A stretch of 64,000 nucleotides of DNA from the IMG/VR virus record IMGVR_UViG_2883489344_000002; one strand, 5' to 3'. Each line of letters opens with the position of its first letter. Within the stretch, counting starts at the first letter, position 1. The translations under genes were made by a program, and so were the position numbers. Shown here one piece after another: positions 38,775 through 63,160 of this stretch. This stretch comes from a virus (Duplodnaviria > Heunggongvirae > Uroviricota > Caudoviricetes). The notes under the pieces were generated by a model. That model was not told where the DNA came from. It saw only the letters and a list, made by a program, of their open reading frames with translations, and ran no database searches.

Positions 38775-38777
38775 CGT

Positions 38778-42007: not shown

Positions 42008-42212
42008 ATTTCTTGACCCTTCCATTCTCAACTTCACTTTTAGCTAGTAAGGCTTCGAGAATGAAGGAATACGGCAGATCAGGGTTGTCTTCGGCAATCC
42101 TACCTATTTTAGCCCAATGCTCAATCTGCTTTGGTACGCTGCGGCTTGAAACCTCAGCATACACTTTCACATCATCCACAAAGTCCTCATCAAGACGGAC
42201 ACTAATAGCCAT
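41976..42212 (-). CDS. ParD/RelB-type RHH antitoxin
   Basis: MAISVRLDEDFVDDVKVYAEVSSRSVPKQIEHWAKIG matches the ParD antitoxin pattern. 78 aa. Upstream of and overlapping the toxin. Confidence 0.6.
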   Translation of the reverse strand: MAISVRLDEDFVDDVKVYAEVSSRSVPKQIEHWAKIGRIAEDNPDLPYSFILEALLAKSEVENGRVKKYVRRTERKQG

Positions 42213-48673: not shown

Positions 48674-49513
48674 TTATTTCAGGCTCAGGAACGGCGTCGC
48701 CGCGCCACTTGTGAGGGTTTGTGGGAGGGTGCCATTCCACTTGTTGATCGCCTCCAGTTGCAGCACTTCTGGGTTTTTGCGCAGCGCATCACCACGCAAG
48801 GCGATTGCGTCAGCCTCAGCTTTGGCGCGCAGCGTGGTAGCCTCAGCCTCTCCCCGCGCCTGCTCAATAGCTTTCTGGGCTTCAGCCTTGGACTGGGCGA
48901 TCTCATTTTCACGCAACAACGCGCGCTGGGTGGCTTCGATTTTGGCGTTAATCGACTCTTTGACCTTTTGCGGATAGTCCAGGTCGCTAAGCCAGGACAG
49001 CTTAACGACGCGGATACCCATTGGGTCTAACTTGGCCTTCAGATCCTTAGTGACCTCCTCCAGCAGCTCAGTTTTGCCACCAGCTGCCAGGGAGTTGATA
49101 TCCATCTTGCCGGAGTGGTTGATCAGCGCATCGCTGATGTTCTGGCGAATGTTGATCTCGGTGATCTCATCAACACCCTTACGGTACTTTTGGAATATTT
49201 TGGTCACCTGCGTTGGGTCAACAAAATACTCCACCCCTACTTTTGCCTTCACGTCCATTGAGTCAGAGGTTTGGAAAGTAAAGGGTTCGCGGTAGTTATG
49301 CAGCTGGTTGAAGGTCGGGAACTGGTAAATATCTTCGTTCCAGGTCAGCCAGTATTTACCAACACCCACTTCCTGTTGTTGGACGCCCTTTTCAGTACCG
49401 TATAGGTCAACCTTCACGCCCACATAGCCCGCTGGCACGGTAGCGCGCTCGCAGCCAGTCAGGAGCGCCGCTGCACCGATGATGCAGGCGATCGCAAAAT
49501 GTTTCAATTTCAT
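48674..49513 (-). CDS. SPFH/band-7 domain lipoprotein
   Basis: Lipobox LLTGC. Stomatin/prohibitin-like core followed by an A/E/K/Q-rich coiled coil. Confidence 0.55.
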   Translation of the reverse strand: MKLKHFAIACIIGAAALLTGCERATVPAGYVGVKVDLYGTEKGVQQQEVGVGKYWLTWNEDIYQFPTFNQLHNYREPFTFQTSDSMDVKAKVGVEYFVDPTQVTKIFQKYRKGVDEITEINIRQNISDALINHSGKMDINSLAAGGKTELLEEVTKDLKAKLDPMGIRVVKLSWLSDLDYPQKVKESINAKIEATQRALLRENEIAQSKAEAQKAIEQARGEAEATTLRAKAEADAIALRGDALRKNPEVLQLEAINKWNGTLPQTLTSGAATPFLSLK

Positions 49514-49704
49514 GCTTTTTCCTTCTTCATAAATTTCTTGGTGGTAAATGCCCAGTACACACCCACCGGATAGACCAGTGCCAGCACCCCGCCAAATAGG
49601 CATAGCAGAGTTGAGCGACTAGACATCATGGTTGGGAGGGCTAGGCCATATGTGCAAAGGGTGGCCAGTACAGCGGCCAGGAGTTTGAAATAAGCTCGGA
49701 TCAC
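49510..49704 (-). CDS. small two-TM membrane protein (NfeD-like partner?)
   Basis: 64 aa. Its stop overlaps the start of the SPFH gene. Confidence 0.4.
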   Translation of the reverse strand: MIRAYFKLLAAVLATLCTYGLALPTMMSSRSTLLCLFGGVLALVYPVGVYWAFTTKKFMKKEKA

Positions 49705-49783
49705 ATAGTGCTCTCATGGAAGCCCGGGAGGGCTGGGGGAATCGTACCGGCATGGCCTCTATCAAAGACCATGCCGGTACGGC

Positions 49784-50509
49784 TTAGGCGGTCAGGTTCT
49801 TCAAGCGATCCGTGGCCTGCTCCATCTCGGCCATGGCATCAATCAGCTCATCAGCGGCGTTACGCAGCTTATGGGCAGCGCGCAGCAAATCGGTTTTGAT
49901 GGGACCCAGCCGTTTTTGGAACATGTCCTTTTCCTGGGTTTCACGCTCCTGCATTTCTGCCTGGCGCAGCATCTCTTCTGCCTGACGGCGCAGCTCGGCC
50001 GGGGTATGTTTAAGAGCCTTCAGGACTGGCTCAGTAGGGAGAGAGGTTTTGCTTTCTTGGATCGGCATTTCTTTGATGGTTTCCTTTTCCACAATTGGCA
50101 TGGCGGGTTCAGGGGCTGCACCCCACTTCAGATTAGCGGCGATATCTTTCAGATCGCCCGGCACATAATGAGGGGCTTGGGTTGGTTGGCGTTCTTCTGG
50201 CGGCGTGAGGGTGTGACCCATAGGTGCCATGGGTTCGCCGTGCCGGCTATGCCGGAGGTAAATGGCGCTGCCCGGACGGCCGACCGGATAAATGGTGTAG
50301 ACGTGGATGCGCTCACGGACGTGCACAAATTGAACCAAAAATTCCAGCTCTTTGCTGGTCATGGTTTGCAGTACGCTAACCTTACGCTGCACCATGGCCA
50401 GGCTTACCCCATCTACCTGACGATCGACATACGACTTCAGCTCAGAGAGGTGACGTTGGAGCTTAGGCGGCAGCTTCGGCACGTTTTTGGGCGTGTTGTT
50501 CAGGTTCAT
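49784..50509 (-). CDS. hypothetical protein (241 aa from MNLNN start)
   Basis: GGAG SD at the internal ATG. The long upstream extension was rejected. Confidence 0.4.
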   Translation of the reverse strand: MNLNNTPKNVPKLPPKLQRHLSELKSYVDRQVDGVSLAMVQRKVSVLQTMTSKELEFLVQFVHVRERIHVYTIYPVGRPGSAIYLRHSRHGEPMAPMGHTLTPPEERQPTQAPHYVPGDLKDIAANLKWGAAPEPAMPIVEKETIKEMPIQESKTSLPTEPVLKALKHTPAELRRQAEEMLRQAEMQERETQEKDMFQKRLGPIKTDLLRAAHKLRNAADELIDAMAEMEQATDRLKNLTA

Positions 50510-50883
50510 ATTTTCTCCGCGTTGATGCGGTGACGGAAAGCGGCAGCGGCAACCATGCCCAGGCACATATTGATCCCTGGCAGATAAACGTCTGCCACTC
50601 CCTCGCTCACCAACTTTTCCAATTCGCCCCGGAACAGATCCATTCCGGTGGCTTCTCTCTCGCTGATGGCTTTGGCAGTGACCGGCGCGTGATTGCACTC
50701 CTTCACTGCCAAAACCAGCGCTTCCCGGTTGGCTGGCGACCAATCGTTGTTAGCCACTAGCTTCATGGCCACCTCAAAAACGCGAACGAGGCTCGCGTTT
50801 TCAGCTGTGAGGTGGGCAACATTGAAGGTGAGCGCATCAATATGCTCACTCACCACTTTTAACGTAGGGTTTAGGCTGGCCAT
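50506..50883 (-). CDS. hypothetical protein (125 aa)
   Basis: ORF. Confidence 0.4.
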   Translation of the reverse strand: MASLNPTLKVVSEHIDALTFNVAHLTAENASLVRVFEVAMKLVANNDWSPANREALVLAVKECNHAPVTAKAISEREATGMDLFRGELEKLVSEGVADVYLPGINMCLGMVAAAAFRHRINAEKI

Positions 50884-50888
50884 ATAGC

Positions 50889-51894
50889 TTAAGCACCACC
50901 CTCGCCACGCGCCTGCAAGATCGCCCCGCCCTTGCTGCGCGAGATGCGCTTGAGGGTGGCATCTGTGGGTTTGTTGCTGTAGTAGATGTAATTGAAACTA
51001 CTGATACGACGATCGTAGAAGCGGATGCGATACCGCTCTTCCCCCTCAAAGTAAGGGCGCGGCGTCATTCGCTCAGAGCAGAAGGCGTTGTCCTCAGATT
51101 TTTCACGGAAGGTGCAATACTCATCGGTGATCCGATGGGAGGTATAACGGCCATCAGATTCCATGATGTGCACCTTGCAACGGTTATCGCTGCGGGCGAA
51201 CAACGCATAATGCTCATCGAATTGCTCCTGGGTTGGGCGTTCGCGGAAGTGAACTGCGTAGCTTAAATCGCGCCGTGCGTCGTCGAACGGTACGACCGTG
51301 ATCCGCCAGCGGTATTCCGGCATCCAGTCAAAATTTTTGCTTTTGATGACTGGCGGCACAGTGCGCAGCAGCGCCATTGGGGAAGGCGGATCAGATAATT
51401 CCTCCACATTCGGCATCCGCTCCAAATCTGGCTCTTCTGCTGGTTTCGGTTCAGCTTTAGGATCAACTTCAGGCGCTGGCGCTACTTCCGGTGCAACCTC
51501 TAACACCTCTACCGCACCCGCTTTAGCGACATCTGCGATCGCAGTCTCTTTAGCCCCCTCTACAGGCATAACCGGTGCGGAGGTAGGTGCTGTAGCAATG
51601 GATTTTGGAGCTGCTGGAGCAGTGCCGGGGATTGCGGGTGCTTCGGGTGCCAGTTCGGCCTTTTCAGAGGTGGCCTCTGGGGCGGAGGAGGAGATTTTCT
51701 GTGCTTCTTGCTTCGGGGCTGGAGCCTGCGGTGCGTTAATCCCCATGACCATGTTCAATACAGAAAGAAAGTGATAGGCCTCACTCACCTCAAGATTTTT
51801 ACCGGCCATCACATTGAATGCAGTGACGGCTCGGGTCATTACGTCTTCAGATGGGGATGGGAAACCGTCACCAGCTGGATTGAGCATATTTGTC
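50889..51894 (-). CDS. hypothetical protein with Pro/Ala-rich linker
   Basis: ORF. The start is taken at MTNMLNP. Confidence 0.4.
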
Positions 51895-52074
51895 ATATAG
51901 TTACCAGAATTGATAAGCGCGTTTAGCGGCCGGAAATGTACAGGATGCAATTTTGAAACTCAATACTAAAACGTTGGTCACTCATGCCGATTTAGTGTGC
52001 GATTAGTTCAATATACTTAACTAAATCTAATGCTTCTTTCGAGGAAGCATAAAAAAACCGCCGGGTGGCGGTCT

Positions 52075-52847
52075 TTACATCGTGGCGAGTAACAGTGATT
52101 CAGGTACTTCTAACATCCTTGCAAGCGTCTCATTGTCCTTAGAATCATGCATCGTCAAGTGTCCCAGGTGGGATAGCTCCGTCACGCGAATAGTGCCACC
52201 ATTCCACAACACCCGCAATTGCTCTAAGCCCTCAAAATACTCCTGGGGACTCATGCCCCATGTGCTGTACTCCCGCAAAGTTTGGGGGCGGCAGGCGAAA
52301 ACCTGCACCTGGCGAAGCCTGTAGCGGCCGGCGACCGGGGCATGTTTGGCTGATGCCCTGCCATGCAAGGAATGCTGCTACGGGAGAAATAGAGTGCACG
52401 ACCATATTTATCAGTCACCGTCTTCACAATGCCAGGATCTGCGGCCTGGGCATCAGACACGTGCTGCACCGCAACGGTTGCCATGTCTGCCGCGCGCTTG
52501 TCGAAGTCACCCACCAGCTGCTTGATGTGGCAGCCCGGAAATAGCGGCTCATTGGCCGGCAAGCTCACGGTGATGACGCTGGCCATGATCACCTTAGCGT
52601 CTACCAGCTGCGTCACGGCGGCGGCGACACGCTCAAGGTCATTCACGCAACCATTCACCATTACTGCCATGGCACCGTGCTGTGGCACGTGGCGCGCAAT
52701 GTCCAGGCACTCAGTGGCCACTATCACCATTGATGCACCTGACTCATGCGCCCGCTGAATGGTATGGGACAGAATCGATCTTCCGCCTACCTCAGCCAGG
52801 GGGTCAAACAGGCCTGCGGCAGAACATGGTTCCGCGGGGACGACCAC
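52075..52847 (-). pseudogene. kdsB-like CMP-Kdo synthetase gene, frameshifted and with a degenerate N-terminal motif
   Basis: The 52251-52847 ORF aligns to KdsB residues about 1-180. The 52075-52368 ORF aligns to the KdsB C-terminus (EQLRVLWNGG) in another frame. The N-terminus lacks the conserved Arg/Lys. Confidence 0.5.
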
Positions 52848-52850
52848 AAA

Positions 52851-53120
52851 TTAGGCGGAGGTGCTTTCTGGGAACTCGATAGCGAAAGCTTCCTGGGTAA
52901 GGCGATCGGCGCGGCGAACGGCGCTGCCAAGAGCCTCAATGGCATTCTTGGCCACCACCCACAGAGAACCGTAAAGCTCTTGGGTGCCACACGATTTATG
53001 GGCGAACACCAGACGGTATTCCCCGGCCTCAACGCGCATTGAGACGTTGTGCCCCAGGCGCTTTACCCACCAGAAAATTTGCTCGATGGTGTAGCCCTTA
53101 TGGATCTTCTCGAAAGCCAT
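52851..53120 (-). CDS. hypothetical protein (89 aa)
   Basis: ORF. Confidence 0.35.
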   Translation of the reverse strand: MAFEKIHKGYTIEQIFWWVKRLGHNVSMRVEAGEYRLVFAHKSCGTQELYGSLWVVAKNAIEALGSAVRRADRLTQEAFAIEFPESTSA

Positions 53121-53122
53121 GA

Positions 53123-53431
53123 TTATTCGCTCTCCGACTCGTAAAGAGCCTGATGGGCTTCATGCTCAATGGAGCTTTCGACAAGGCCATACGTCAGCGC
53201 AGAGAGCGTATCGCGCACCTTGCTGATATGTGCCTCTTGCTCAACGTCCGGGGAAATATCCAGGAATGCCGCGTTCAGGACGCCGGCCAGGGTGCCGGTA
53301 TAGGTGAAGGTTTCACCCTGCTCATTGGTGATAGTCAACTGGGCGCTACCATCGGCCGCCTTAGTCAGCTGCGGGGTAGTCTCCTGGAAGAGCCAGAAGA
53401 GCTTTGCATCTAATGTCAGTTGTTGGTTCAT
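53123..53431 (-). CDS. hypothetical protein (102 aa)
   Basis: ORF. Confidence 0.35.
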   Translation of the reverse strand: MNQQLTLDAKLFWLFQETTPQLTKAADGSAQLTITNEQGETFTYTGTLAGVLNAAFLDISPDVEQEAHISKVRDTLSALTYGLVESSIEHEAHQALYESESE

Positions 53432-53453
53432 AGGGTTCCTTTAAGGTGAGGAG

Positions 53454-53648
53454 TTAATCAGCGCGCTCAAGGGCAAGCAGACGGAGATGAGCTTTACCGC
53501 GCGGGTAGGTGCGGTACACGGTCTTATTGATGACCTGAAGATAACTCTCAAGGCTTACAAACCTTTGGCTTTCATAGGGTTTGATGGTATGGGTTAATTG
53601 ATTAGCCCAGCGCAATTTAAGCTCTGGGAGTTTGGTTGCTTTAGACAT
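53454..53648 (-). CDS. hypothetical protein (64 aa)
   Basis: ORF. Confidence 0.3.
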   Translation of the reverse strand: MSKATKLPELKLRWANQLTHTIKPYESQRFVSLESYLQVINKTVYRTYPRGKAHLRLLALERAD

Positions 53649-53689
53649 GTGGCCTCATAAAAAAGCCGGCAGGGCGCCGGCCGGGGTGG

Positions 53690-54859
53690 TTATTTCTCAA
53701 AACGGGTTTCCACTGCGCCATGTTCGCGCTCCCATGCATCAACCAGGGCGTAGCAGCGCTCATGCAGCTCCAGGGCGGTTTTCTTGCCCAAACCCTTGAT
53801 GCTTTCCAGCTCGTCCACGTCATGCATCACCACGTCACATAGCGTGTTGTAGCCGTCTGCTTTCAGCGCGGTCAGGATGGCCGGGCGCAGCCCTTCTACG
53901 CTATCCAGCTCGACTGACTTCGCCCAGTCCAGGCGCGCCACCAGCAGCGGGTTCACCTCGCTCAGTTCCTCACGGTAGATGGTAAACAGCTCCTCATAGA
54001 GGTCATCTGGCCAGATGTCACGCAGCAACGGGATGATGTAATAATGCGGGCGACCCCACTCATTGACCTTCACATCACAGCTGATACCAATGGTGGTCTT
54101 GATGGTCAGTGAGAACGTCAGGTTATTGACATAGCGCGGGCGCTCCGCGTAATTCCGTTCAACTCGCATCCCGGTAAACTCACGGCGCAAGAAGAAATGC
54201 ACCGGCGATCCGTCTTTGGACTTGGTTTCGTAGCGGTAAGCCTCATACAGGCCGTTGGCGCGCTCAATATGGCGCGCCAGCTCGTCATTGCGGGAACGGC
54301 ACTGTTCGAGCTGGGACATGGCCAAGGTCACATCTGATTTCATGGCAGTTTCACGGATCCGGGACTCGTTCAACTTCTGGCTCAGGGTTTTGACCGTAGC
54401 CCGCAGCTCGCGCGCCTCGGTCTGGTACTGCACCTTTTTGGCCTTCAGCTTTTCTGGCTGCAATTGCTCCAGCTCACGCAGACGTGCAGATAACCGTTTT
54501 TCCCGCTCGACATAGGTGGCCACCATGTTCTCTTTGGTTTGCACCTGGTTTTTCATCTGGGTGGCCTCGGCCTTCAGGCTTTCAACCATCATCTCCAGCT
54601 GGAAAACAGCACTGGCCACGCTGTCGGCAAGCTCTTCATCAAAGCCCTCACAGCGCGCCTGGAATTCGGCTATTTGTTCCTTGGCCTGGTTGAGCTGGTG
54701 CTGTAGAAGGCCGGCAATCGTCCTTTTACTCTCCAGCTCGTCCAATACAGCATCTTGTTGGTCTTGCTCTGCCTCAGCGATCTTAGCCAGCTCCGCAGTC
54801 AGCAAGCGGATCCCCTCGATGCTCAGCTCAATATAGCGGGAGCTTTCATCATCCTTCAC
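53690..54859 (-). CDS. coiled-coil protein with C-terminal HhH-like motif (389 aa)
   Basis: About 200 aa of coiled coil. C-terminal GLGKKTALEL helix-hairpin-helix-like segment. Confidence 0.4.
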   Translation of the reverse strand: MKDDESSRYIELSIEGIRLLTAELAKIAEAEQDQQDAVLDELESKRTIAGLLQHQLNQAKEQIAEFQARCEGFDEELADSVASAVFQLEMMVESLKAEATQMKNQVQTKENMVATYVEREKRLSARLRELEQLQPEKLKAKKVQYQTEARELRATVKTLSQKLNESRIRETAMKSDVTLAMSQLEQCRSRNDELARHIERANGLYEAYRYETKSKDGSPVHFFLRREFTGMRVERNYAERPRYVNNLTFSLTIKTTIGISCDVKVNEWGRPHYYIIPLLRDIWPDDLYEELFTIYREELSEVNPLLVARLDWAKSVELDSVEGLRPAILTALKADGYNTLCDVVMHDVDELESIKGLGKKTALELHERCYALVDAWEREHGAVETRFEK

Positions 54860-55320
54860 GCGGTAAAGCGCGTAGTTGAGGTTGCCCAGCAGGTTACTAA
54901 AGCCATGGTTAATGGCCTCGATAAGCGGGGGTGTTCTGCTGGTGGAGTGGCTGGCAAGGGCTGTACGGACATCGGAACCTCTAGAATGTGTGGCTGGCCG
55001 TGTGTAGGGACATGCGACCCAGTGGGTTAACCGAGAGCACTGGCGCGGCAGGGAAACCCTCTTGGTTAAGCAATGTGCCCAGGCGCAAGGGGGTCATCAG
55101 GTTATCGGGGTAATGCACCACCACTGATCTGACGCCGCTGTCGGTCATGAAACTTACCGACCAAAAGTAATGGCGGCGTTGGAAAAATCTCAGAATCTTG
55201 GACATTTGCACCATCTTACGAATAGTTAAACATCCTAAACATTTAGCGGCCGTAATATGAAGTATTTAGGATGGGATGTAAAGTTGTGCCCGTTACCCGA
55301 ATCAGTGACCTTTTTCTGTA

Positions 55321-56052
55321 TTAACAGGTCACTGATTCGAACACCGGATCGGTAGCATCGTGGGTCAGGTATGCGGGCAACCAGGGTTCGCCGCTTTCAT
55401 GCGGACGCGGGTTGCCGTGGAACACCACCACGCGCGCGCCGGCCGGCAAGGTGCCATCACCGCGTGAATAGCGCTCGGTTGCCCAGCGGTTCTCTCCGAC
55501 CTTCACGATGTCTGCCTTGTAGCTGACGAACCAGCCCGGATAGAGGTCTTGCCAGTGCAGGCAATCCCCGATCACGCCCCGGATAAAGCCCTGGTCGCCC
55601 CACTTCGCCGTTACGGTGCACTCAGCAATATGGCGCTGCGGCTCCTTCCAGAAGGCATTCCAGATCTGCGCCTTAGCGCTGTTCGGGATGAACATCACCG
55701 AACTCATAAGGTATTGCGGGTGGTAAAAGTCAGTGAGCATCACCATCTGGTCACCGGTGGTCTTCAGCAGCTTCTTGATGTCACCGGTGATCACCGTGTC
55801 CAGGTCAAAATAAAGCAGGTCATCCGTAATGTCCGGGCGGAACAAGTCGATCTTCGCCCACCAGCCACGCATCCCCTGGTAGGGGGTGGTCAGTGGGATG
55901 CAGGTCACGCGATCCATGACAAATGGCGCATCCGTCAGACAGATGACCTCCGCGCCCTTAGGCAGCTGTGCCACCAGCGTTTTGACGTCATTCGGGGTGT
56001 AGTCGCCGCCGGCGCGGTACACCAGGGCAATTTTCAGGGGTTTTTTAGCCAT
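55321..56052 (-). CDS. GT-A-like (DxD) putative glycosyltransferase (243 aa)
   Basis: LLYFDLDTVITGD DxD motif after a hydrophobic strand. Confidence 0.4.
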   Translation of the reverse strand: MAKKPLKIALVYRAGGDYTPNDVKTLVAQLPKGAEVICLTDAPFVMDRVTCIPLTTPYQGMRGWWAKIDLFRPDITDDLLYFDLDTVITGDIKKLLKTTGDQMVMLTDFYHPQYLMSSVMFIPNSAKAQIWNAFWKEPQRHIAECTVTAKWGDQGFIRGVIGDCLHWQDLYPGWFVSYKADIVKVGENRWATERYSRGDGTLPAGARVVVFHGNPRPHESGEPWLPAYLTHDATDPVFESVTC

Positions 56053-56636
56053 TCTCTTAAGCTCATTTGAAGGATTGAATTAAGTTTCCCGCAGGAAACC
56101 ACGTTGATCTGCCCTAGCGCTGACTTGAACAGCAAGGGCAAATGGGAAAGGTTGTTGGGGCGGCCGCCTACCTTGTAACGCGCTTCCTGGGTCGCATCCA
56201 CGCCCACCAGCGCCACATTTTTAAAGCCCAGGTGATAAGCCAGCCCCAGTGCGCCCCAGGCAGAGTTGCCGTTATTGATCCGGGTAGGGTCTTCAGACAG
56301 ACCGGGCTTTGCCGACCAGCGCCATAGCCACCACTCTGGGGAGCCTTTTACCGGCGGCTCTGCGGCACGGTAAGAGACGCGCTCATATTCATAAACGCCC
56401 TCCTGAGTGATGCCGCCAGAAAAATAGCGCACGTTGCTGCGGCGCGTGGCCAGCCGGCGCATGTTGTCAGGGGATGGATCCAGCGTGAAGAAATAGGATG
56501 CCCGGGCAATCCAGTCAATGGCACCATTGACGGCGATCACTGGCACATCACGCGGTGGCAAAAAGCCACGCGCTGAAGGTCCAGACGCCACGATGATTAC
56601 CCGATCACCTTCTCCAGGCTTTTTAGTGGGAAACAT
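56034..56636 (-). CDS. MptE-like (DUF115-like) Rossmann-fold protein, putative glycosyltransferase (200 aa)
   Basis: VIIVASGPS...VIAVNGA and GNSAWGALGLAY...ALVGVD blocks. Confidence 0.4.
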   Translation of the reverse strand: MFPTKKPGEGDRVIIVASGPSARGFLPPRDVPVIAVNGAIDWIARASYFFTLDPSPDNMRRLATRRSNVRYFSGGITQEGVYEYERVSYRAAEPPVKGSPEWWLWRWSAKPGLSEDPTRINNGNSAWGALGLAYHLGFKNVALVGVDATQEARYKVGGRPNNLSHLPLLFKSALGQINVVSCGKLNSILQMSLREWLKNP

Positions 56637-57144
56637 GTCAGTTCAGTTCTCCGGGAGCAGTTAACAATGTCGATGTGCCGCAGCTCTTCACGGACATCGG
56701 CAAAATGCTGTTGCCACTTGGCAACGCTGTCGTCTGTCGGGTTTCGCAATCCGCCGGTATGCAAGCCGTGGTAGTGCACACCCTCTTTCAAAGAGCAGTC
56801 ATAGCCCAGAAGGAAGATGCGCGTTGCCCGAGGCTTGCCGCAAACTGGATGGCCATAGAGCCGGAGTTGAATTGAATGTGGGAGTCGCCAAAGCGCTGGT
56901 ATTCGATGCCCAGGCGATTGCTTGCTTTGCGTGATGCGGTACACCGGCGGATCCCCGCAGGCACATCATTGCCATAGTGTTGCCACCAGGCATCATCACC
57001 AGCAAACAAGGCATATGGCTGTCGGAACATGCCATATGCGTTATTTACTGCCACAACGGGATACCCCGCCCTTTCAACCTTTTCACAGTCTGCTTTTGTC
57101 AGTGACGGCGCGGGTGCCACACAAAATACAGAGTCAAAAATCAT
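56597..57144 (-). pseudogene. frameshifted paralog of the MptE-like gene
   Basis: The 56788-57144 ORF (VFCVAPAPS...VVAVNNA...NSGSMAIQFAASLG) and the 56597-56944 ORF (IFLLGYDCSLKEG) are collinear with the 56034-56636 protein. They are in different frames. The junction is near 56825. Confidence 0.45.
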
Positions 57145-57256
57145 TCATTTCTCAGGGGAAAACAGGACGCCGGCGCGTCCTGGAGATCCACAAAATTAAA
57201 TCACAATTGGACTTACAAGACACTGCAAGCCCGCCGGTTTGACGGAAGTTTTACGC

Positions 57257-57853
57257 TTAGGCGGCGGCTGGCAGTGCCTGCCCCGGCTCCAGGAGCCAAT
57301 AGCGCAGTATCAGAGCAACCGCTTCTTCCCAGCCCCACACCACCTCAGCCACATAGCCTTGTGCCCGTAGCCGCACCTGCCAATCCAGTTGCTCAGCAGA
57401 GGGCTTGTTAGTGCCATACTTCAGCTCAAACCGCAGGCCATGGTAGATGCCGCGCGCTGCGTCCAAGGTGACATCGGGGTAGCCCTTCTTCACCCCCTCG
57501 GCATTCAAGTCATTGGCGGTTTTCTGCGACCGCAGGCCGCCGTTCGGCGTGGCATGGAGCAAATCATATATGTCCCGGTGATGCCGGTACATGTAGTCAA
57601 AGATCCGCACCTGGTCATAATGCTCATAGTTACCTTTGAGCAGATCCGGCTTTTTTCCCAGCTGGATAAGCGCCTTTTCATGTACGGAGACCGCAAAGGC
57701 ATCCTCCAGCGCATTCAGCTGCGCCAGCGGGCTTTTGAGCCTTGTCGTCAAATCCGGCAGCTCATTCTTGGGCTTGAGCTTTTTGCCCTTGACCAGCTTG
57801 CCGCTGGCGTCTCGGTTGTTGGCCTTAAGCCAGTCTTCAGTAATGCGAAACAT
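57257..57853 (-). CDS. VRR-NUC domain nuclease (putative)
   Basis: C-terminal GYPDVTL...GLRFELKYGTNKPSAEQLDW...GYVAEVVW fits the PD-(D/E)xK VRR-NUC pattern. Confidence 0.45.
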   Translation of the reverse strand: MFRITEDWLKANNRDASGKLVKGKKLKPKNELPDLTTRLKSPLAQLNALEDAFAVSVHEKALIQLGKKPDLLKGNYEHYDQVRIFDYMYRHHRDIYDLLHATPNGGLRSQKTANDLNAEGVKKGYPDVTLDAARGIYHGLRFELKYGTNKPSAEQLDWQVRLRAQGYVAEVVWGWEEAVALILRYWLLEPGQALPAAA

Positions 57854-58087
57854 CTAACCCCATTCACCAGGCTTAACCCCAAACTTACGCACCTGGGCAT
57901 TACGCTCCCTGTGCCAGTCCTGGGAACAATCTTCATCACAAAATGGCTTTTGCCCACACGGCTCATCACAGTAGTGGCAAAAGCCGTTAATCATCAGCTG
58001 CGCGCCGGCAGACTGGCGGGACATTTGGATCTGGGTGTCCAATACTTTTTGCTCGGCCTCAGCCAAGCGGTCGATTTCGTCGCTCAT
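57854..58087 (-). CDS. TraR/DksA-type C4 zinc-finger protein
   Basis: CHYCDEPCG....CDEDC. 77 aa. Confidence 0.5.
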   Translation of the reverse strand: MSDEIDRLAEAEQKVLDTQIQMSRQSAGAQLMINGFCHYCDEPCGQKPFCDEDCSQDWHRERNAQVRKFGVKPGEWG

Positions 58088-58111
58088 AGGTACTCAAAAA
58101 ACATGGTTTGG

Positions 58112-58363
58112 TCATATTTGCGCGTCGTCCCCCATAATTTGGGCAAGGTCATATCGATTTTGGATGGAGAGTAATGCTAATGGCGTCTCATTACAAAAAC
58201 CCCCAAGCTTCACAGCAGCTTCCGCAGTGAGCTGGGCTTTTTTGTTGATAAGTCTTGATAAGGTAGCGTGGCTAATCCCCACTTTCTCGCCAACCTGACG
58301 CAACGTCAGACCGCTGGCCTCAACTGCGGCCTGGATAACCTCACCAGGATGCTGCACGGACAT
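58112..58363 (-). CDS. HigA-family HTH antitoxin-like protein
   Basis: PGEVIQAAVEASGLTLRQVGEKVGISHATLSRLINKKAQLTAEAAVKLGGF matches the HigA/VapI pattern. Confidence 0.6.
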   Translation of the reverse strand: MSVQHPGEVIQAAVEASGLTLRQVGEKVGISHATLSRLINKKAQLTAEAAVKLGGFCNETPLALLSIQNRYDLAQIMGDDAQI

Positions 58364-58411
58364 GATGCCCCTTAGATGAAAAAAGCGCCCTCATGGGCGC
58401 TTTGCAATCAG

Positions 58412-58600
58412 TCAGTGATGGCGGCTTGCATGTTCCATCACCATGTTGAGTAAGTAAATTACTGTGAAAACGGCAGGAAATACCTTAATTGTGGTGAGAA
58501 GTTTCACCTTTACGCTAGTTTCGCTATTGCGGGTTGCTTGGTTAGCGGCTACTGCGTTGTCTCGACGGGCATAATCAATCATGTTAGAGTCCTTTTGCTC
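58412..58600 (-). CDS. small C-terminally TM-anchored protein upstream of the HigA-like gene (start uncertain)
   Basis: The annotated 113-aa ORF would read through a perfect palindrome. The real product is probably shorter (MIDYARRDN... or MSPKQGS...). Confidence 0.3.
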   Translation of the reverse strand, partial: EQKDSNMIDYARRDNAVAANQATRNSETSVKVKLLTTIKVFPAVFTVIYLLNMVMEHASRHH

Positions 58601-58700
58601 ATTGGCCGGGGATCCTTGTTTTGGTGACATGTCCCAGGCCATGTGTAGAGGCTCACTTCGGTGAGCCTTTTTCATCTGGGCATATTGCCCCGATTGCTTG

Positions 58701-58722
58701 TTACGTGGTACGTACCACGTAA
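58701..58722. promoter_or_regulatory. perfect 22-bp palindrome TTACGTGGTACGTACCACGTAA (putative operator)
   Basis: Exact inverted repeat. It is adjacent to a hairpin plus T-run at 58640-58672. Confidence 0.5.
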
Positions 58723-58772
58723 CGAATAGTATAGGGTCCCCCTTTAGGTGCAAGTATTAATGAGGTCTTTTG

Positions 58773-59006
58773 CTATTTACTGTCTTCTTTCAGTGACTTC
58801 GCCAGCTGTTCAATCACCCTTCGCCATTCGTCCGCTGTTAAATCACGCACATTCCTGACTAGCTCATCCGTTTTGGGGTCACAAACAAACGTCCATTGCT
58901 CCCCATAATGCAGGGTAAATGTCGTCACCCTGTTATTGGACTTACTCAGCTGGCAACCGTATTCCTGCGCCAGTGCTTGCCAGTGCCGTAAATCCCCGTA
59001 CCGCAT
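58773..59006 (-). CDS. hypothetical protein (77 aa)
   Basis: ORF. Confidence 0.35.
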   Translation of the reverse strand: MRYGDLRHWQALAQEYGCQLSKSNNRVTTFTLHYGEQWTFVCDPKTDELVRNVRDLTADEWRRVIEQLAKSLKEDSK

Positions 59007-59015
59007 CGCCGCTCC

Positions 59016-59477
59016 TTAATGTTTAGGCTTAACTTTGCTCTCAAGTGTGATGTCTTCGGACACATACTCGTAGTCACTGTCATCCACCTCATCCGGCACC
59101 TTCAGCTGGTGGATGGAAGAAAACAGTAACCCGCTCTCCAGCCGTTCGCGGTGATAGAGAGACGCGGCTACCACCGTGAGCGCCGGCCGCTCATAGCTAT
59201 AAATCGCTGCTACATCGCTATCAATCGCGCTGTCAGCCGGCATCAGCCCCTGCTCTACCAGCAATGCTTTCAGTGCTGGCCAATAAGCCCCCATGCTGCG
59301 GTAATAGCGCGGCTCATCCTTCAGGTACTGGCTCATACTCTTAAGGTAGTCCATCAGGTACTCTTCTTCACTGCGGCCGGCCAGCGCCACCGGCAAACAG
59401 GCTTCCAGGTAGCTCACTTCCGGTTTCAAGGTGTCTTTCAATGTGGTCATGCAATTTTTGCCGGGTTTCCCCGGCAA
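59016..59477 (-). CDS. hypothetical protein (153 aa)
   Basis: ORF. Confidence 0.4.
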   Translation of the reverse strand: MPGKPGKNCMTTLKDTLKPEVSYLEACLPVALAGRSEEEYLMDYLKSMSQYLKDEPRYYRSMGAYWPALKALLVEQGLMPADSAIDSDVAAIYSYERPALTVVAASLYHRERLESGLLFSSIHQLKVPDEVDDSDYEYVSEDITLESKVKPKH

Positions 59478-59488
59478 TCTCCATCAAA

Positions 59489-60270
59489 TTAGTATCGGGA
59501 AACAACTTTTAAGACTTCTTCACGGTCGTACCGGGACGGGATCAGCCACCAGCTGCCGGCGAACTCTGATCCGGGGCGCGTCCCATTGAAGAATTTTGCC
59601 CCATACTTCTCTTTCAGCTCATCTTTGGAGCGGTAGAGCGCCCCCTCTTTGCCTTTCGGATCCTGAAGGCCAAAGCACCCGCCGGCGGCAAAGTTGATGC
59701 CACGCTTGGAACGTACCGCGCCGGTACTGACCCGCACCGTGATGCCCGTTTCAGTTTGCAGGCCATCTACGACGTGCCTTTCTTCCGCTTCTGCCTCAGT
59801 TTTGGCAAGGGCAGCCGCTACAGCCTTGGCGTCCTCCGCCTGCTTGCCCTGCTCGGCCTCGGTCGGCTCCTGGCCACCCGTGGGCAGCCCGTGTGCCTCC
59901 TGGTAGGCGCGCTTGATTTTGGCGCGCCCCTCCTCACCCATAACCAATAAGGCGTGATCGGCCTGGCGGGCAACATCACGGACGCGCGCCGGCGCCACCA
60001 GCAGCTCTGGCGTGACCTCCTTCGCCGGCTTAAGCCGGCAATGACGATAGTCGCGCAGGCTTCCGCCGTTCTATAGCCCGCATATCCGTCAAATTGATGC
60101 TCGAAGGTCTTTTCCCCATCTAGGATCTGAAGATACGCGTTCTGCTCTGGTGCCACGTCAGGAGTTACCAGCTCTTTGAACTGCTCATAACGCGCCTGGG
60201 CAGTCTCGGCCTTGCCAGCTTCCAGGGACTCGTGCGCCTGCACCACCCGGCGCGCCCTTTCCGCGTCCAT
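59489..60270 (-). CDS. hypothetical gene, possibly frameshifted (two ORFs in different frames)
   Basis: The 59818-60270 ORF has a sensible N-terminal 75 aa followed by Arg-rich nonsense. The 59489-59998 ORF looks genuine. The junction is near 60000-60060. Confidence 0.3.
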
Positions 60271-60729
60271 GCCCTTGGCAAAAGCGCTTTGGGTTATCGC
60301 CGCTTTACAGCGGTGGCCGTAGCCAACTGGCTTTAATCAAATACACCACTATTAATGTACTCGCACAGTCACCCGGTACACTATCGTGAATTTTCACAGT
60401 AATTTATTGGCAAACGCCTTCGCCATCTCTTCATCAAGGTGTCAGTTTTGCTATTGAAAGTTATTGTACGTTAGGAGAATTTTTTGTACCTCTGAGCTAT
60501 GGTAGAGCTTGACCATGTTGATAGGCAGTTTTGAGCGAATAGCGGAAGTTCGAAATTGTGATCTGATCTTTGTTGATTAATGTCTCCCAATGTTAGTAGT
60601 TTCTTCATATACAACGCTATGATATTCCCATTAATTCGAGTTTTCGAACGAACAAATCAGAGACCAGTGGTCACCTGCCGAGCACTGACTTGCATGTATG
60701 GATTTAATTAATCAAGGAAATTAATCGTT

Positions 60730-62757
60730 ATGAGTGATAATTTTGTTAGTAAAATTGTTAAGGGAAGAATCAAACCACCAATACGTGCTGATTTTAGTCT
60801 TGAAAAATGGAATGAGGAGTGGGCTAAGGTTGAGGCAAACTCTTCAGCAAGAGATAAAAAAGTCTATACAATGGGTATAATTATTGATGGTGTGCTCAGT
60901 GATATTAGAGAAAAACTAGCGGATTTATATCGACAAGCACCGAAAACAAACCATGAAAAACTGATGATCTCGTATATTGCAAGCTCCAATAGGACATCAG
61001 CTGTTGCTCTTAAACTTGCAAAAAGAACACCAACGACAAATGTTAATGACATAATGCTAAAAGCAAATGGTCGAGTAAACAAACAAAGCTTAGGAGAGAT
61101 CGTTCATGGAGCTGTTGATGGTTTTCAGCTTGCCATAAGAGAATGCATAAAAGGCATAGAGAATAATAGTCAAATAACAAGTTCTGATGATCCAATAGAT
61201 GAAATGATTTTCATCCAACAAGAAAGCTGGTTATCTCAGTTATATCATACTTACCTCCATCTTTGGCAATGCATTTTATGGAGTGATTATAATTTAGTAG
61301 AGATTGATGTTGAAAATAAAATATTCAGAATCGAACAGCCAAACACACCATTTGAAATTGCATTTAATAATAGTAGCCAGCGAAAAGAAAGTCTTTCAGC
61401 CCAAATGACATTTATCGCTACCCTACCTAATATAGCCCAATTCTTTGATGATGATAAATATATTTTTATTACTCGGGGTAATAAAAAAAGAGTGGCAAAA
61501 GTTGCATCTATTAGTAATGCGACTAGAGAATTAAAAACAATCAACGCGCACTGGAGAATGGGGGAGCATGATCTTGAAGACCACTTTCCTAAAGAGTGGT
61601 TAAACAATGATTTTGGTAAAGGGTTTTGTTTGTCAGAAGTATTGAATGTAATGAGAGTATTGATGCTCATCGCTAACATTGAGACTGAAAAATATCCAGA
61701 AGATGATAGTGCATATAATGTTAATAAATTAAGGGAGTTTTGTCCAACCGTTCAAGCAAGCTCATTAGAATGTGCCTTGTGTGAAGCTACAGAAATTAAC
61801 GCCCTTAAAATTAGTAAAATTCTTGATTTTCTAACATTTAATTCTTCTCCAACTGGAGATATTTGGTGTCAACCGTTGGTAAAATTAAAGAAAAATAAGT
61901 ATGCATTATTGACTAGCGCATTAAACGCACCGGTGATACTTAGGCTTTTCGAGCGTTGGGCATATCTTTTTGATATTGATCTCAGTAAAAAAGGAACGAC
62001 TTACGAAATAAAAGTTGTAGACGAAATAAACAGCGCTCTTAGAAGCAATGTATTTATAACTGACTATGACGATGCAGTATCTAAAAGAATTAAAGTAATA
62101 TCTGGTGAGGAAGAGATTGACTTTTTGGCAAGGGTCGATGATTTGATATTGATTGGTGAAGCAAAGTCTATAGTTACCACTGATTCAGAAATATCTAAGT
62201 ATCGGACGTCTGAAATACTTCAACATGCGGGAGAACAGGTTGTAAGGAAAACAGAGTTTTTAAGAACGAATTTACAAACTGTTTTTGAAGTATTGAATTG
62301 GAGTTATGATGCGAATAAAGATTATAAGTTTGCAGGGTTTATCATTAACAGCAGTCGCATATTTGTCGGGCATTCATTTAATTCAATACCAGTAATTGAT
62401 GAGAAAATACTTCAGGCATACTTCTCCTCAAATGAAATAAACCTGTTAACTGTGATTTCACAAAATAAGTCGAAATCTATTGCTTGGTACAGACTTTATA
62501 ACAATATCAATGAATTGAAGGATAACTTCAGTAAATATATCGCAGCCCCACCACAATTGAATGCCAACACTAAAGATTATGAGTATAATGAAATAGTTTT
62601 CCCCCATATAAATAATGACTCTTATAAAATCTCAAAAAAATATCTTGTATTTAAATCACGTGGCCTGTTAGCTCCTATGGAACAAGAACATAGTTTCCCG
62701 GTGATCAAATCAGCAGATTACGATTTAGAGATCGAGACTATTAACGTGACACTTTGA
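60730..62757 (+). CDS. large AT-rich protein of unknown function (675 aa) with a possible PD-(D/E)xK motif; candidate defence/exclusion gene
   Basis: About 30% GC, against roughly 55-60% for the backbone. It is preceded by a 450-bp AT-rich promoter region. EIDFLARVDDLILIGEAKS has the form D-x(n)-ExK. No NTPase motif. Confidence 0.6.
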   Translation: MSDNFVSKIVKGRIKPPIRADFSLEKWNEEWAKVEANSSARDKKVYTMGIIIDGVLSDIREKLADLYRQAPKTNHEKLMISYIASSNRTSAVALKLAKRTPTTNVNDIMLKANGRVNKQSLGEIVHGAVDGFQLAIRECIKGIENNSQITSSDDPIDEMIFIQQESWLSQLYHTYLHLWQCILWSDYNLVEIDVENKIFRIEQPNTPFEIAFNNSSQRKESLSAQMTFIATLPNIAQFFDDDKYIFITRGNKKRVAKVASISNATRELKTINAHWRMGEHDLEDHFPKEWLNNDFGKGFCLSEVLNVMRVLMLIANIETEKYPEDDSAYNVNKLREFCPTVQASSLECALCEATEINALKISKILDFLTFNSSPTGDIWCQPLVKLKKNKYALLTSALNAPVILRLFERWAYLFDIDLSKKGTTYEIKVVDEINSALRSNVFITDYDDAVSKRIKVISGEEEIDFLARVDDLILIGEAKSIVTTDSEISKYRTSEILQHAGEQVVRKTEFLRTNLQTVFEVLNWSYDANKDYKFAGFIINSSRIFVGHSFNSIPVIDEKILQAYFSSNEINLLTVISQNKSKSIAWYRLYNNINELKDNFSKYIAAPPQLNANTKDYEYNEIVFPHINNDSYKISKKYLVFKSRGLLAPMEQEHSFPVIKSADYDLEIETINVTL

Positions 62758-63160
62758 TTTTTCTAAATATATTGAATGTTATTGTAATGGCGATGTAATT
62801 AACAGAGTGTACCATCGCCATTTTCCCCTAGAAAAGCAATGTCCGCTTCTGGCACAAAGCAGACATGCTTCATCCGGCGTTTTGTCGTCGTCAGTTAACC
62901 CAATCTCTTTGTACCAGGCACGGCGGCCGCTCCAACTTTCTCGTATCATTTGTTGCCAGAACTGCACTGCAAAGAGGCATGCAAATGCTGTCGCATTTGT
63001 CGCCTTTAGGCTGGGAACACATCGATCTGATAGGCGATTATAGATGGAAAAGCAACCAAATACCGGCTTCTGGTAAGTTTCGTCGGCTGAGACCAGCTAA
63101 AGTCGAAAGGTCAAAAATAGCCTTAACGTACAATAATTTTCGATATCCAAACTGACCCCT

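What the first reader, a model, noticed from the sequence alone, without database searches (positions are those of the whole stretch)
52075..57150. Decaying sugar-activation / glycosyltransferase cluster (kdsB-like pseudogene, GT-A-like gene, MptE-like gene plus frameshifted paralog)
A KdsB (CMP-Kdo synthetase) homologue is split into two frames. It also lacks the conserved N-terminal Arg/Lys. Downstream are a 243-aa DxD glycosyltransferase-like gene and a 200-aa MptE/DUF115-like gene. A second copy of the MptE-like gene is broken by a 1-nt frameshift near 56825. Together with the SGNH hydrolase and SPFH genes this looks like a cargo region for cell-surface (LPS/Kdo or capsule) modification, possibly for superinfection exclusion. 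It is caught in the process of pseudogenisation.
Basis: partly seen in the sequence, partly recalled or inferred. Interest (0 to 1): 0.6.

Follow-up and report, generated by a model that had tools for sequence, protein, structure and literature searches.

The report
Sequencing-error frameshifts in P1-type sugar-transferase genes
The two "broken" genes are almost certainly single-base sequencing errors in the deposited plasmid sequence; what is really there is an intact three-gene sugar-transferase block shared with phage P1, plus a full-length copy of a sugar-activating enzyme that has lost its catalytic residues.

Summary
The window is plasmid pSGAir0207_4 (CP028039.1) of Nissabacter sp. SGAir0207, a P1-like phage-plasmid assembled from PacBio reads.

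**Frameshifts.** A contig built independently from a read run deposited for the same isolate (SRR8894411) matches the window with no mismatches. It differs only by five extra bases, each inside a G/C run. Two of these restore the two "broken" genes, to 182 aa and 257 aa.

**What the genes are.**
- They are homologues of P1 pmgL-pmgM-pmgO-pmgP-pmgQ-pmgR-pmgS, in the same order.
- The pmgO/P/Q trio is present, in order, in all but one of the related phage loci examined.
- PmgQ-like has a GT8-type fold with its catalytic motifs.
- PmgO-like and PmgP-like are distant paralogues with a Maf/sialyltransferase-like fold. The E. coli third-Kdo transferase WaaZ gives a sub-threshold match to the same Pfam model.

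**The kdsB-like gene.** It is full-length but is the only deviant at 25 otherwise invariant KdsB positions, including the Arg/Arg/Lys loop and QGD. It is an accessory gene, seen in 4 loci, and is probably catalytically dead.

**Verdict.** Ordinary and largely an artefact, with a modest lead on the unknown function of P1 pmgO/P/Q.

The parts
57854..58087 (-). PmgL-like small protein (77 aa), first gene of the P1-type block
   Evidence: tblastn gives 35% identity to the P1 pmgL region (L003 2178-2336). Found in 74 related loci.
57257..57853 (-). PmgM-like VRR-NUC nuclease-fold protein (198 aa)
   Evidence: 47% identity to P1 pmgM, which is annotated as VRR-NUC. PHROG 2363/824/5702. The Pantoea orthologue is annotated VRR-NUC.
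56597..57144 (-). PmgO-like gene with a Maf/GT42-like fold. True product is 182 aa. The window lacks one C in the run 56827-56829 (+ strand), which creates the apparent frameshift.
   Evidence: Intact 182-aa ORF in the read-based contig (L002 4908-5456). Matches phrog_4603 'alpha-2,3-sialyltransferase' at E=2.5e-52. Uninterrupted in all relatives. The profile's best PDB matches are Cst-II sialyltransferases, E about 0.05, which is marginal. Homologous to PmgP by hhalign, probability 98.2%.
56034..56636 (-). PmgP-like gene (200 aa), MptE/DUF115/Maf-like fold. Overlaps PmgO-like by 40 nt and PmgQ-like by 19 nt.
55321..56052 (-). PmgQ-like GT-A glycosyltransferase (243 aa), GT8-like
54981..55214 (-). 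Small protein (77 aa) in the position of P1 pmgR
   Evidence: Assigned by position between PmgQ-like and PmgS-like. tblastn gives 28-61% identity to the gene in the same position in 11 loci, including JK004 and a P1-like contig.
53690..54972 (-). PmgS-like protein. True product is 427 aa. The window lacks one G in the run 54927-54931 (+ strand), so its N-terminus appears cut to 389 aa.
   Evidence: Matches phrog_1660 'PmgS-like head morphogenesis' at E=6e-64. Carries an HHH_5 domain. Indel shown. The Pantoea alignment breaks exactly at 54925. A terminator-like hairpin lies at 53682-53664.
52851..53648 (-). Three small genes (64, 102 and 89 aa). The 102- and 89-aa genes travel with kdsB as an accessory insert.
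   Evidence: The 102- and 89-aa genes are found only in the kdsB-carrying relatives L001 and L012. They are absent from the close relative L013.
52075..52847 (-). KdsB-derived gene, full-length (257 aa) once one G is restored to the run 52337-52340 (+ strand). Catalytic residues are lost and the first ~10 codons and the gene's own ribosome-binding site are missing.
   Evidence: Intact ORF in L002 9207-9980. Scores 119 bits on TIGR00466 against a 155-bit cut-off, whereas the Pantoea copy scores 254 bits. It is the sole deviant at 25 columns that are invariant in 11 other KdsBs. The GTG start lies 3 nt after the upstream gene's stop codon. A terminator-like hairpin lies at 52076-52053.

Best explanation
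**1. The frameshifts are assembly errors (shown; probability about 0.93).**
- The window is CP028039.1, a P1-like phage-plasmid assembled from PacBio RS II reads.
- Both frameshifts are one-base under-calls of short G/C runs in a poorly polished stretch near the end of the deposited contig.
- In the cell, the PmgO-like gene (182 aa) and the kdsB-like gene (257 aa) have open reading frames.

**2. The genes are a conserved P1-type block (shown).**
- The block is the counterpart of phage P1 pmgL-pmgM-pmgO-pmgP-pmgQ-pmgR-pmgS.
- It is a conserved backbone module of P1-like, SSU5-like, some lambdoid and some jumbo phages. It is not decaying cargo.

**3. It is a glycan-building module (inferred; about 0.7).**
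- PmgO and PmgP are inferred to be transferases of the Maf/Cst/WaaZ fold class that use a CMP-activated ulosonic acid.
- In Enterobacterales the donor would most plausibly be CMP-Kdo (inferred; about 0.35).
- PmgQ is inferred to be a GT8-type, metal-dependent retaining hexosyltransferase that uses a UDP-sugar.
- The most likely acceptor is the host LPS core during lytic growth (about 0.35). Virion proteins are the main alternative.

**4. The kdsB-like gene can no longer make CMP-Kdo (shown for the residues; inferred for the activity).**
- In related plasmids an accessory, catalytically intact phage KdsB would boost CMP-Kdo supply.
- In this plasmid the gene keeps its fold-defining residues and its reading frame but has lost the triphosphate-binding Arg/Arg/Lys, the QGD motif and other active-site residues.
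- Any Kdo donor must therefore come from the host KdsB.
For: **Assembly artefact**
- The exact PmgQ-like protein is found on Logan contig SRR8894411_10.
- The contig matches window 62049..49323 with 0 mismatches and 5 one-base gaps. All five are deletions in the window within G/C runs of 3-5 bases as they stand in the window, 4-6 in the read-based contig.
- Window 7270-48230 is 100% identical to the contig.
- The genome paper lists SRR8894410 and SRR8894411 as this isolate's runs. Assembly was HGAP3, Quiver and Pilon (PMC6687921).
- All three coding-region corrections restore ORFs colinear with homologues.

**P1 homology and synteny**
-.
- The trio is present in 86-87 of 87 loci in the same order, and PmgO is never interrupted.

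**Folds and motifs**
-.
- WaaZ, described as the third-Kdo transferase (PMC6358824), matches PF01973 at E=7e-7 over residues 1-195.
- Extra glycan enzymes are inserted in or fused to the module elsewhere: a GT1 gene in EP_H11 and a TylF-like methyltransferase fusion in XacN1.

**KdsB**
-.
- It is accessory: present in 4 loci and absent from the close relative L013.
Against: **On the artefact reading**
- I could not see the reads themselves.
- Which of the two runs is MiSeq is inferred, from the fact that a 72-kb contig matches without a mismatch over the 53.7 kb compared.
- Pilon polishing should have fixed such errors.
- The five errors cluster: 5 in 12.7 kb against 0 in 41 kb, at equal G/C-run density. 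That clustering is explained only by inference, as an unpolished contig end.

**On function**
- No donor or acceptor has been determined for any PmgO/P/Q protein.
- P1 pmgO, pmgP and pmgQ are dispensable for plaque formation (PMC10695390).
- PmgP's second-best fold match is a pyrophosphokinase, MptE.
- Pfam hits to PF01973 are all below the gathering score, for WaaZ as well.
- The direct profile comparison of PmgP and PmgO with WaaZ is weak: probability 20% and 11%.
- KdsB accompanies the trio in only 4 loci, so the Kdo link is thin.
Confidence: 0.85

Rival explanations
1. The frameshifts are real. The plasmid population carries the shorter homopolymer alleles, and PmgO-like and KdsB-like are true pseudogenes.
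For: The deposited, Pilon-polished assembly carries them. NCBI annotated the truncated 198-aa product (P0001). The window's PmgO-like also has an unusual APAPSL loop in place of ASGPSL. The kdsB-like gene shows loss of catalytic residues.
Against: The read-based contig from the same isolate has the longer runs at all five sites and no other difference over 53.7 kb. Every difference is a deletion in a G/C run, which in my understanding is typical of PacBio consensus errors. Two of the five lie outside genes, so selection plays no part. Runs of 3-5 bases are too short for frequent slippage.
Confidence: 0.05
2. The kdsB-like gene is a relic with no remaining function. Its reading frame is open only because too little time has passed for a stop codon or indel to arise.
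For: It is the sole deviant at 25 columns invariant in 11 other KdsBs, including all recognised catalytic positions. It lacks the first ~10 codons and its own ribosome-binding site. The gene is dispensable in this plasmid family. Its lineage evolves about twice as fast as its relatives.
Against: In a neutral-drift simulation without indels, the frame stays open in only 4-6% of runs for the excess divergence alone, and in 0.5-1% of runs for the whole branch. Codon-position GC (0.64/0.44/0.66) matches the neighbouring genes. 46 invariant structural positions are kept. A terminator-like hairpin directly follows the stop codon.
Confidence: 0.45
3. The kdsB-like protein is a repurposed pseudoenzyme. 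It could bind Kdo or CMP-Kdo, or pair with and modulate the dimeric host KdsB.
For: The 257-codon frame is open despite heavy divergence. The fold core is retained, for example the LEQLRVLW and ALYFSR motifs. Codon composition is normal for a coding gene.
Against: No second member of this diverged lineage was found. The nearest protein is 41% identical. There is therefore no evidence of purifying selection on the new sequence state. No RBS-like sequence is evident by eye upstream of the GTG start.
Confidence: 0.4
4. PmgO/P/Q glycosylate phage virion proteins, giving a true morphogenetic or decorating role, rather than modifying the host envelope.
For: P1 names the genes 'putative morphogenetic'. 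They lie in an operon with a late promoter next to tail and baseplate genes. The module sits beside PmgS-like 'head morphogenesis'. Close structural relatives of both folds glycosylate proteins: glycogenin, GlyE, AgtA and the Maf flagellin glycosyltransferase.
Against: The genes are non-essential in P1. In the lambdoid phage phiNP the module occupies the slot between the lysis genes and the terminase, which in my understanding is a typical moron position. WaaZ and the GT8 enzymes WaaJ/WaaO and LgtC act on LPS.
Confidence: 0.25
5. PmgO and PmgP are small-molecule pyrophosphokinases of the MptE or thiamine-pyrophosphokinase type, not glycosyltransferases.
Against: The best fold match is a Maf glycosyltransferase. 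The PmgO profile's best sequence matches in the PDB are Cst-II sialyltransferases, and the alignment covers the GxGPSL loop and the SG...LxGxD motif. The genes are always paired with a GT8-like transferase, and elsewhere with a GT1 and a sugar-type O-methyltransferase.
Confidence: 0.1

Closest known systems
Phage P1 pmgL-pmgS region (PmgO, PmgP, PmgQ; P7 HdmB, HdmC, HdmD)
   Same: Same gene order: PmgL, VRR-NUC PmgM, PmgO, PmgP, PmgQ, a small PmgR-position gene, then PmgS. Identity to P1 is 57-60% for PmgP and PmgQ. PHROG families match at E=1e-52 to 1e-89.
   Different: There is no ppp phosphatase between PmgP and PmgQ. No pmgN counterpart was looked for. The HAD-type phosphatase pap is absent, and a 64/102/89-aa plus kdsB-like insert occupies its place after PmgS. 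No P1 C1-operator consensus is present. The function of the P1 genes is itself unknown, and they are non-essential (PMC10695390).
KdsB, CMP-Kdo synthetase (TIGR00466; PDB 1VH1 and 3K8D)
   Same: Alignable over nearly the full length: E=2e-32 to E. coli KdsB across residues 2-225. The fold-core motifs are kept.
   Different: Scores 119 bits against the 155-bit cut-off. Arg10, Arg15, Lys19, the SGT motif, the QGD of QGDEP, His181 and the Asp of GVDTP are all replaced (numbering by alignment to 248-aa enterobacterial KdsB). The N-terminus is truncated.
Glycosyltransferase family 8 (glycogenin, LgtC, WaaJ/WaaO, GlyE)
   Different: No Pfam Glyco_transf_8 hit at E<=0.01. Only 14-16% identity. Shorter (243 aa) than the LPS-core GT8 enzymes. 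Donor and acceptor are unknown.
Maf / DUF115 (PF01973) and GT42 sialyltransferases (Cst-I/II); E. coli WaaZ third-Kdo transferase
   Different: All Pfam scores are below the gathering threshold. The proteins are much smaller than Maf proteins. The direct profile match to WaaZ is weak (probability 11-20%). No biochemical data exist.

Membership tests
Pseudogene by frameshift (PmgO-like and kdsB-like) | The reading frame is interrupted in the organism's DNA, not only in one assembly | tested here: not met
   A read-based contig from the same isolate has one more base at 56827-56829 and at 52337-52340. This gives uninterrupted ORFs of 182 and 257 aa.
KdsB (CMP-Kdo synthetase, TIGR00466) | Whole-protein score at or above the curated cut-off | tested here: not met
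   119.4 bits against a cut-off of 155.2. The Pantoea plasmid copy scores 254.1 bits.
KdsB (CMP-Kdo synthetase, TIGR00466) | Conserved nucleotide- and metal-binding residues: PAR...STRLPGK loop, SGT, QGDEP, RH...YRAG and GVDTP | tested here: not met
   Replaced by PAE...SAAGLFD, NDL, PANEP, RQ...CRPQ and TMHDS. The window protein is the sole deviant at 25 columns invariant in 11 other KdsBs, where the others deviate at 0-3. That these residues are catalytic rests on my recollection of the published KdsB/KpsU structures.
KdsB (CMP-Kdo synthetase, TIGR00466) | Homology over the full length of the fold | tested here: met
   E=2.4e-32 to E. coli KdsB (1VH1) across residues 2-225. 46 fully invariant columns are retained.
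P1 PmgO / PmgP / PmgQ families (PHROG 4603, 2111, 1962) | Significant full-length profile match | tested here: met
   E=2.5e-52, 3.4e-83 and 9.1e-89, each over nearly the full length. tblastn to P1 and P7 gives 57-60% identity for PmgP and PmgQ.
P1 PmgO / PmgP / PmgQ families (PHROG 4603, 2111, 1962) | Conserved gene order within the pmgL-pmgS block | tested here: met
   The order in the window matches the P1 map. The trio appears in the same order in 86-87 of 87 loci.
Glycosyltransferase family 8 | GT-A fold closest to GT8 structures | tested here: met
Glycosyltransferase family 8 | DxD metal site, plus the GDQ and C-terminal H..G..P(W) motifs | tested here: met
   Invariant D83, D85, G152-D153, H212-G213 and P215, with near-invariant Q154, in 72 sequences. 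These align with the WaaJ motifs. Their roles are inferred from GT8 literature as I recall it.
Glycosyltransferase family 8 | Match to the Pfam Glyco_transf_8 model | tested here: not met
   No Pfam family at E<=0.01. No precomputed Pfam domain on any of the 120 homologues listed.
MptE-like / DUF115 / Maf (PF01973) | Pfam score at or above the gathering threshold (34.6 bits) | tested here: not met
   PmgP-like scores 19.2 bits and PmgO-like 17.1 bits. Some homologues do carry a precomputed PF01973 hit.
MptE-like / DUF115 / Maf (PF01973) | Shared fold | tested here: met
CMP-ulosonic-acid (sialyl- or Kdo-) transferases of the GT42 / WaaZ type | Transfer from a CMP-activated sugar | not testable with these tools

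The most novel reading that the evidence does not exclude
The pmgO-pmgP-pmgQ trio of P1-like and related phages would be an LPS-core remodelling module. Two WaaZ-like transferases would add Kdo from CMP-Kdo, and a GT8-type enzyme would add a hexose, during lytic growth. Some phage-plasmids would add their own KdsB to boost the unstable donor. The effect would be to mask or truncate the core receptor that P1- and SSU5-type phages use. In this plasmid the KdsB copy would have become a non-catalytic pseudoenzyme kept for another role.
Probability: 0.2. Interest if true: 0.55.

Novelty: new member of a known kind. Interest (0 to 1): 0.25.

Why it matters
**As posed, the finding does not matter.** The "decay" is an assembly artefact, and the genes are homologues of long-catalogued P1 genes.

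**Two practical points follow.**
- CP028039.1 carries at least five uncorrected homopolymer deletions in its last ~15 kb. These create false pseudogenes in the public annotation, for example the 198-aa "cytidylyltransferase domain-containing protein".
- The function of P1 pmgO/P/Q has been open since the P1 genome was annotated. The fold assignments give a concrete, testable hypothesis for it: a pair of Maf/Cst/WaaZ-like transferases plus a GT8-like transferase, with an intact phage kdsB alongside in a few relatives.

**A minor curiosity.** A full-length KdsB copy with all catalytic residues replaced is a possible example of a phage-borne pseudoenzyme.

Tried and rejected
**Searches and comparisons that found nothing or too little**
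- megablast of the region against phages found nothing. Against plasmids it found only one 75%-identical Pantoea plasmid.
- The PmgP profile and WaaZ itself had no hit in the PDB sequence search at E<=10.
- Direct hhalign of the PmgP and PmgO profiles against single-sequence WaaZ gave only local, low-probability matches (20% and 11%). The WaaZ link therefore rests on the shared Pfam model only.
- Foldseek against afdb50, meant to test WaaZ fold similarity directly, was unavailable.
- Literature searches for pmgO/P/Q, hdmB-D and DUF115 in phages found no functional study.
- The P1 C1 operator consensus is absent from the window, so regulation could not be transferred from P1.
- Promoter and terminator scans did not exceed shuffled controls overall. 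Only the positions of two hairpins, right after stop codons, are noteworthy.

**Ideas considered and set aside**
- *Programmed frameshifting or phase variation at the two sites.* The runs are only 3-4 bases in the window, and the read-based contig removes the frameshift.
- *DNA hypermodification as the role of the module.* It lies near nuclease and SNF2 genes, but I know of no hypermodification of P1 DNA, and the module also sits in the lysis-to-terminase slot of a lambdoid phage.
- *dN/dS on the kdsB-like gene.* The nearest relative is 41% identical, so synonymous sites would be saturated.

Full report
**Observation**

All genes of the finding lie on the minus strand. I ran tblastn with the proteins of a syntenic Pantoea plasmid (NZ_CP034366, L001). 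The features described are in the window.
- The KdsB homologue aligns in frame -3 (52847..52368) and then in frame -2 (52326..52135).
- A 182-aa Pantoea protein aligns in frame -2 (57144..56821) and then in frame -1 (56827..56603).
- Between them lie an intact 243-aa gene (55321-56052) and an intact 200-aa gene (56034-56636).
- Pfam gives CTP_transf_3 for both KdsB pieces. It gives only a sub-threshold MptE-like hit for the 200-aa protein.

**The frameshifts are assembly errors**

- The exact 243-aa protein is encoded on a 72,386-bp Logan contig assembled from run SRR8894411. On that contig the neighbouring genes are called as intact.
- Aligned to the window, 12,732 bases of the contig show 0 mismatches and exactly 5 gaps.
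- Every gap is a base missing from the window inside a G/C run. On the + strand the runs are CCC 56827-56829, GGGG 52337-52340, GGGGG 54927-54931, CCCC 58368-58371 and CCCCC 58738-58742.
The third cuts the N-terminus of the next gene (389 aa instead of 427 aa). The last two lie outside called genes.
- With the extra bases, the PmgO-like ORF is 182 aa and the KdsB-like ORF is 257 aa. Both are colinear with their homologues.
- The window is CP028039.1, at record positions 37765-101764.
- The genome paper states that this plasmid was assembled from PacBio RS II reads with HGAP3 and Quiver, then Pilon-corrected with MiSeq reads. It lists SRR8894410 and SRR8894411 as the runs of this isolate (PMC6687921).
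- Caveat: the remaining 41 kb that I could compare (window 7270-48230) is identical to the contig, although G/C runs are equally dense there. The five errors are thus clustered in the last ~15 kb of the record. I attribute this to a poorly polished contig end. That is an inference. I could not inspect reads.

**What the genes are**

- tblastn against phage genomes shows that the 243-aa and 200-aa proteins are homologues of P1 PmgQ (P7 HdmD) and P1 PmgP (P7 HdmC), at 57-60% identity.
- They also occur in SSU5-like phages, Cronobacter phage JK004, the lambdoid Citrobacter phage phiNP, and jumbo Xanthomonas and Stenotrophomonas phages.
- PHROG assignments:

| Window gene | PHROG family | PHROG label |
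|---|---|---|
| PmgQ-like | phrog_1962 | glycosyltransferase |
| PmgP-like | phrog_2111 | unknown function |
| Repaired 182-aa gene (PmgO-like) | phrog_4603 | alpha-2,3-sialyltransferase (the family of P1 PmgO) |
| 427-aa gene | phrog_1660 | PmgS-like head morphogenesis |

- The flanking genes match P1 pmgL and the VRR-NUC gene pmgM.
- The order in the window is PmgL, PmgM, PmgO, PmgP, PmgQ, a small gene, then PmgS. This is the order on the P1 map.
- In 80 IMG/VR loci recovered with a PmgP profile, plus the phage loci, the PmgO-PmgP-PmgQ trio is present in the same order in 86-87 of 87 loci. PmgO is never interrupted.
- This is a conserved backbone block, not decaying cargo.
The SPFH gene has none in the closest relatives.

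**Folds**

- In 72 family members D83, D85, G152-D153, H212-G213 and P215 are invariant and Q154 is nearly so. They align with the DxD, DQ and G..KPW motifs of E. coli WaaJ. No Pfam GT8 hit is obtained.
- The PmgO and PmgP profiles are homologous (hhalign probability 98.2%, E=4e-14). The "second copy" is therefore a true but distant paralogue.
- The PmgO profile's best PDB sequence matches are seven Cst-II entries (E about 0.05-0.1). The alignment covers the GxGPSL loop and the SG...LxGxD motif.
- E. coli WaaZ is described as the transferase for the third Kdo, whose glycoforms have a truncated outer core (PMC6358824). WaaZ matches the same Pfam model, PF01973, at E=7e-7 over residues 1-195.
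- The direct profile comparison of PmgP and PmgO with WaaZ is weak.
- Elsewhere the module has further glycan enzymes inserted or fused: a GT1 gene in EP_H11 and a TylF-like methyltransferase fused to PmgQ in XacN1.

**The kdsB-like gene**

- Once repaired it is 257 aa and aligns with E. coli KdsB over residues 2-225 (E=2e-32).
- It scores 119 bits against TIGR00466, below the cut-off of 155. The Pantoea plasmid copy scores 254 bits.
- I aligned it with four other phage-plasmid KdsBs and seven chromosomal ones. It is the only deviant at 25 columns invariant in the other eleven; the others deviate at 0-3.
- Motif changes, reference sequence to window sequence:

| Reference motif | Window sequence |
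|---|---|
| PAR | PAE |
| STR | SAA |
| PGK | LFD |
| SGT | NDL |
| QGDEP | PANEP |
| RH..YRAG | RQ..CRPQ |
| GVDTP | TMHDS |

- From what I recall of the published KdsB/KpsU structures, these positions bind the triphosphate, the cytosine and the metal ions.
- The gene has also lost the first ~10 codons. Its GTG start lies 3 nt after the upstream stop codon, with no evident ribosome-binding site.
- Its branch is about twice as long as that of its plasmid relatives: 33-36% identity to chromosomal KdsB against 41-50% for the relatives.
- Against simple decay, the frame is open for 257 codons. In a neutral simulation without indels this happens in 4-6% of runs for the excess divergence alone, and in 0.5-1% of runs for the whole branch.
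- Also against decay, codon-position GC matches the neighbouring genes, and a terminator-like hairpin directly follows the stop codon.
- KdsB is accessory in this phage family. It occurs in 4 loci, always after PmgS. In L001 and L012 it is accompanied by the 102-aa and 89-aa genes, which are absent from L014. The whole insert is absent from the close relative L013.
- I cannot decide between a young relic and a repurposed pseudoenzyme.

**Mechanism**

Shown:
- The genes are intact.
- They are P1 pmgO/P/Q homologues.
- The folds and motifs are as stated.
- The KdsB copy lacks its catalytic residues.

Inferred:
- PmgO and PmgP transfer a CMP-activated ulosonic acid. Kdo is the only such donor expected in these hosts, and an intact phage KdsB in some relatives would boost it.
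- PmgQ transfers a hexose from a UDP-sugar.
- The acceptor is the LPS core or, alternatively, virion proteins.
- In P1 the operon carries C1 operators and a late promoter.
- P1 pmgO, pmgP and pmgQ are non-essential for plaque formation (PMC10695390). That fits an accessory, envelope-directed role.

**Verdict**

- The reported decay is an artefact.
- The cluster is a new member of a known, functionally uncharacterised phage module.
- The catalytically eroded KdsB copy is real but minor.
- Interest is low. There is a modest hypothesis-generating by-product for P1 biology.

Noticed in passing
window 54927-54931, 58368-58371, 58738-58742: Three further one-base homopolymer under-calls relative to the read-based contig. 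One truncates the PmgS-like N-terminus (389 aa instead of 427 aa). One lies in the ribosome-binding site of the HTH gene at 58112-58363. One is intergenic. All five errors fall within window 49.3-62.0 kb, while 41 kb elsewhere is error-free at the same G/C-run density.
   Followed up: yes
window 57109-57126 (PmgO-like residues 7-12): The window's PmgO-like protein reads APAPSL where 13 of 14 relatives have ASGPSL. This is the glycine-rich loop that aligns with GNGPSL of Cst-II. The change is also present in the read-based contig, so it is real and might weaken nucleotide-sugar binding.
   Followed up: partly
window 53664-53682 and 52053-52076: Terminator-like GC hairpins with T-tails lie directly after the PmgS-like and KdsB-like stop codons. 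This suggests two transcription units: PmgO to PmgS, and the 64/102/89-aa plus KdsB-like insert. Overall terminator counts did not exceed shuffled controls.
   Followed up: partly
window 30957-42212: P1-type plasmid-prophage backbone: Cre-like integrase (30957-32036), P7/P1 C1-type repressor (33265-34197), ParM/StbA (37121-38230), Lpa late activator (38778-39173) and ParE/ParD (41678-42212). No match to the P1 C1 operator consensus occurs anywhere in the window.
   Followed up: partly
window 39596-40788: A bacterial RNase A-like toxin domain (PF18431) is followed by a CdiI_2-type immunity gene. This is a contact-dependent-inhibition-style toxin/immunity pair carried on a phage-plasmid.
   Followed up: no
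window 8000-11000, 22000-26000, 60000-63000: Low-GC islands (34-48% against about 55-60% elsewhere). They contain a DUF3800 gene (22443-23615), Phd/Fic (24496-25280) and a 675-aa ORF (60730-62757). They are likely recently acquired cargo.
   Followed up: no
L091 5346-6197 (E. coli K-12 waaZ): WaaZ, the third-Kdo transferase, matches Pfam PF01973 (MptE-like/DUF115) at E=7e-7 over residues 1-195, just below the gathering score. This places WaaZ in the same fold class as Maf, Cst and PmgO/P.
   Followed up: partly
L007 6356-7672 (XacN1 ORF373); L009 6033-7001 (EP_H11): In the jumbo phage XacN1 the PmgQ-like domain is fused to a TylF-like O-methyltransferase. In the SSU5-like phage EP_H11 a GT1-family gene is inserted between PmgP and PmgQ. 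The module therefore gains further glycan-tailoring enzymes in other phages.
   Followed up: partly
It appears to be strain-specific cargo unrelated to the pmg block.
   Followed up: partly
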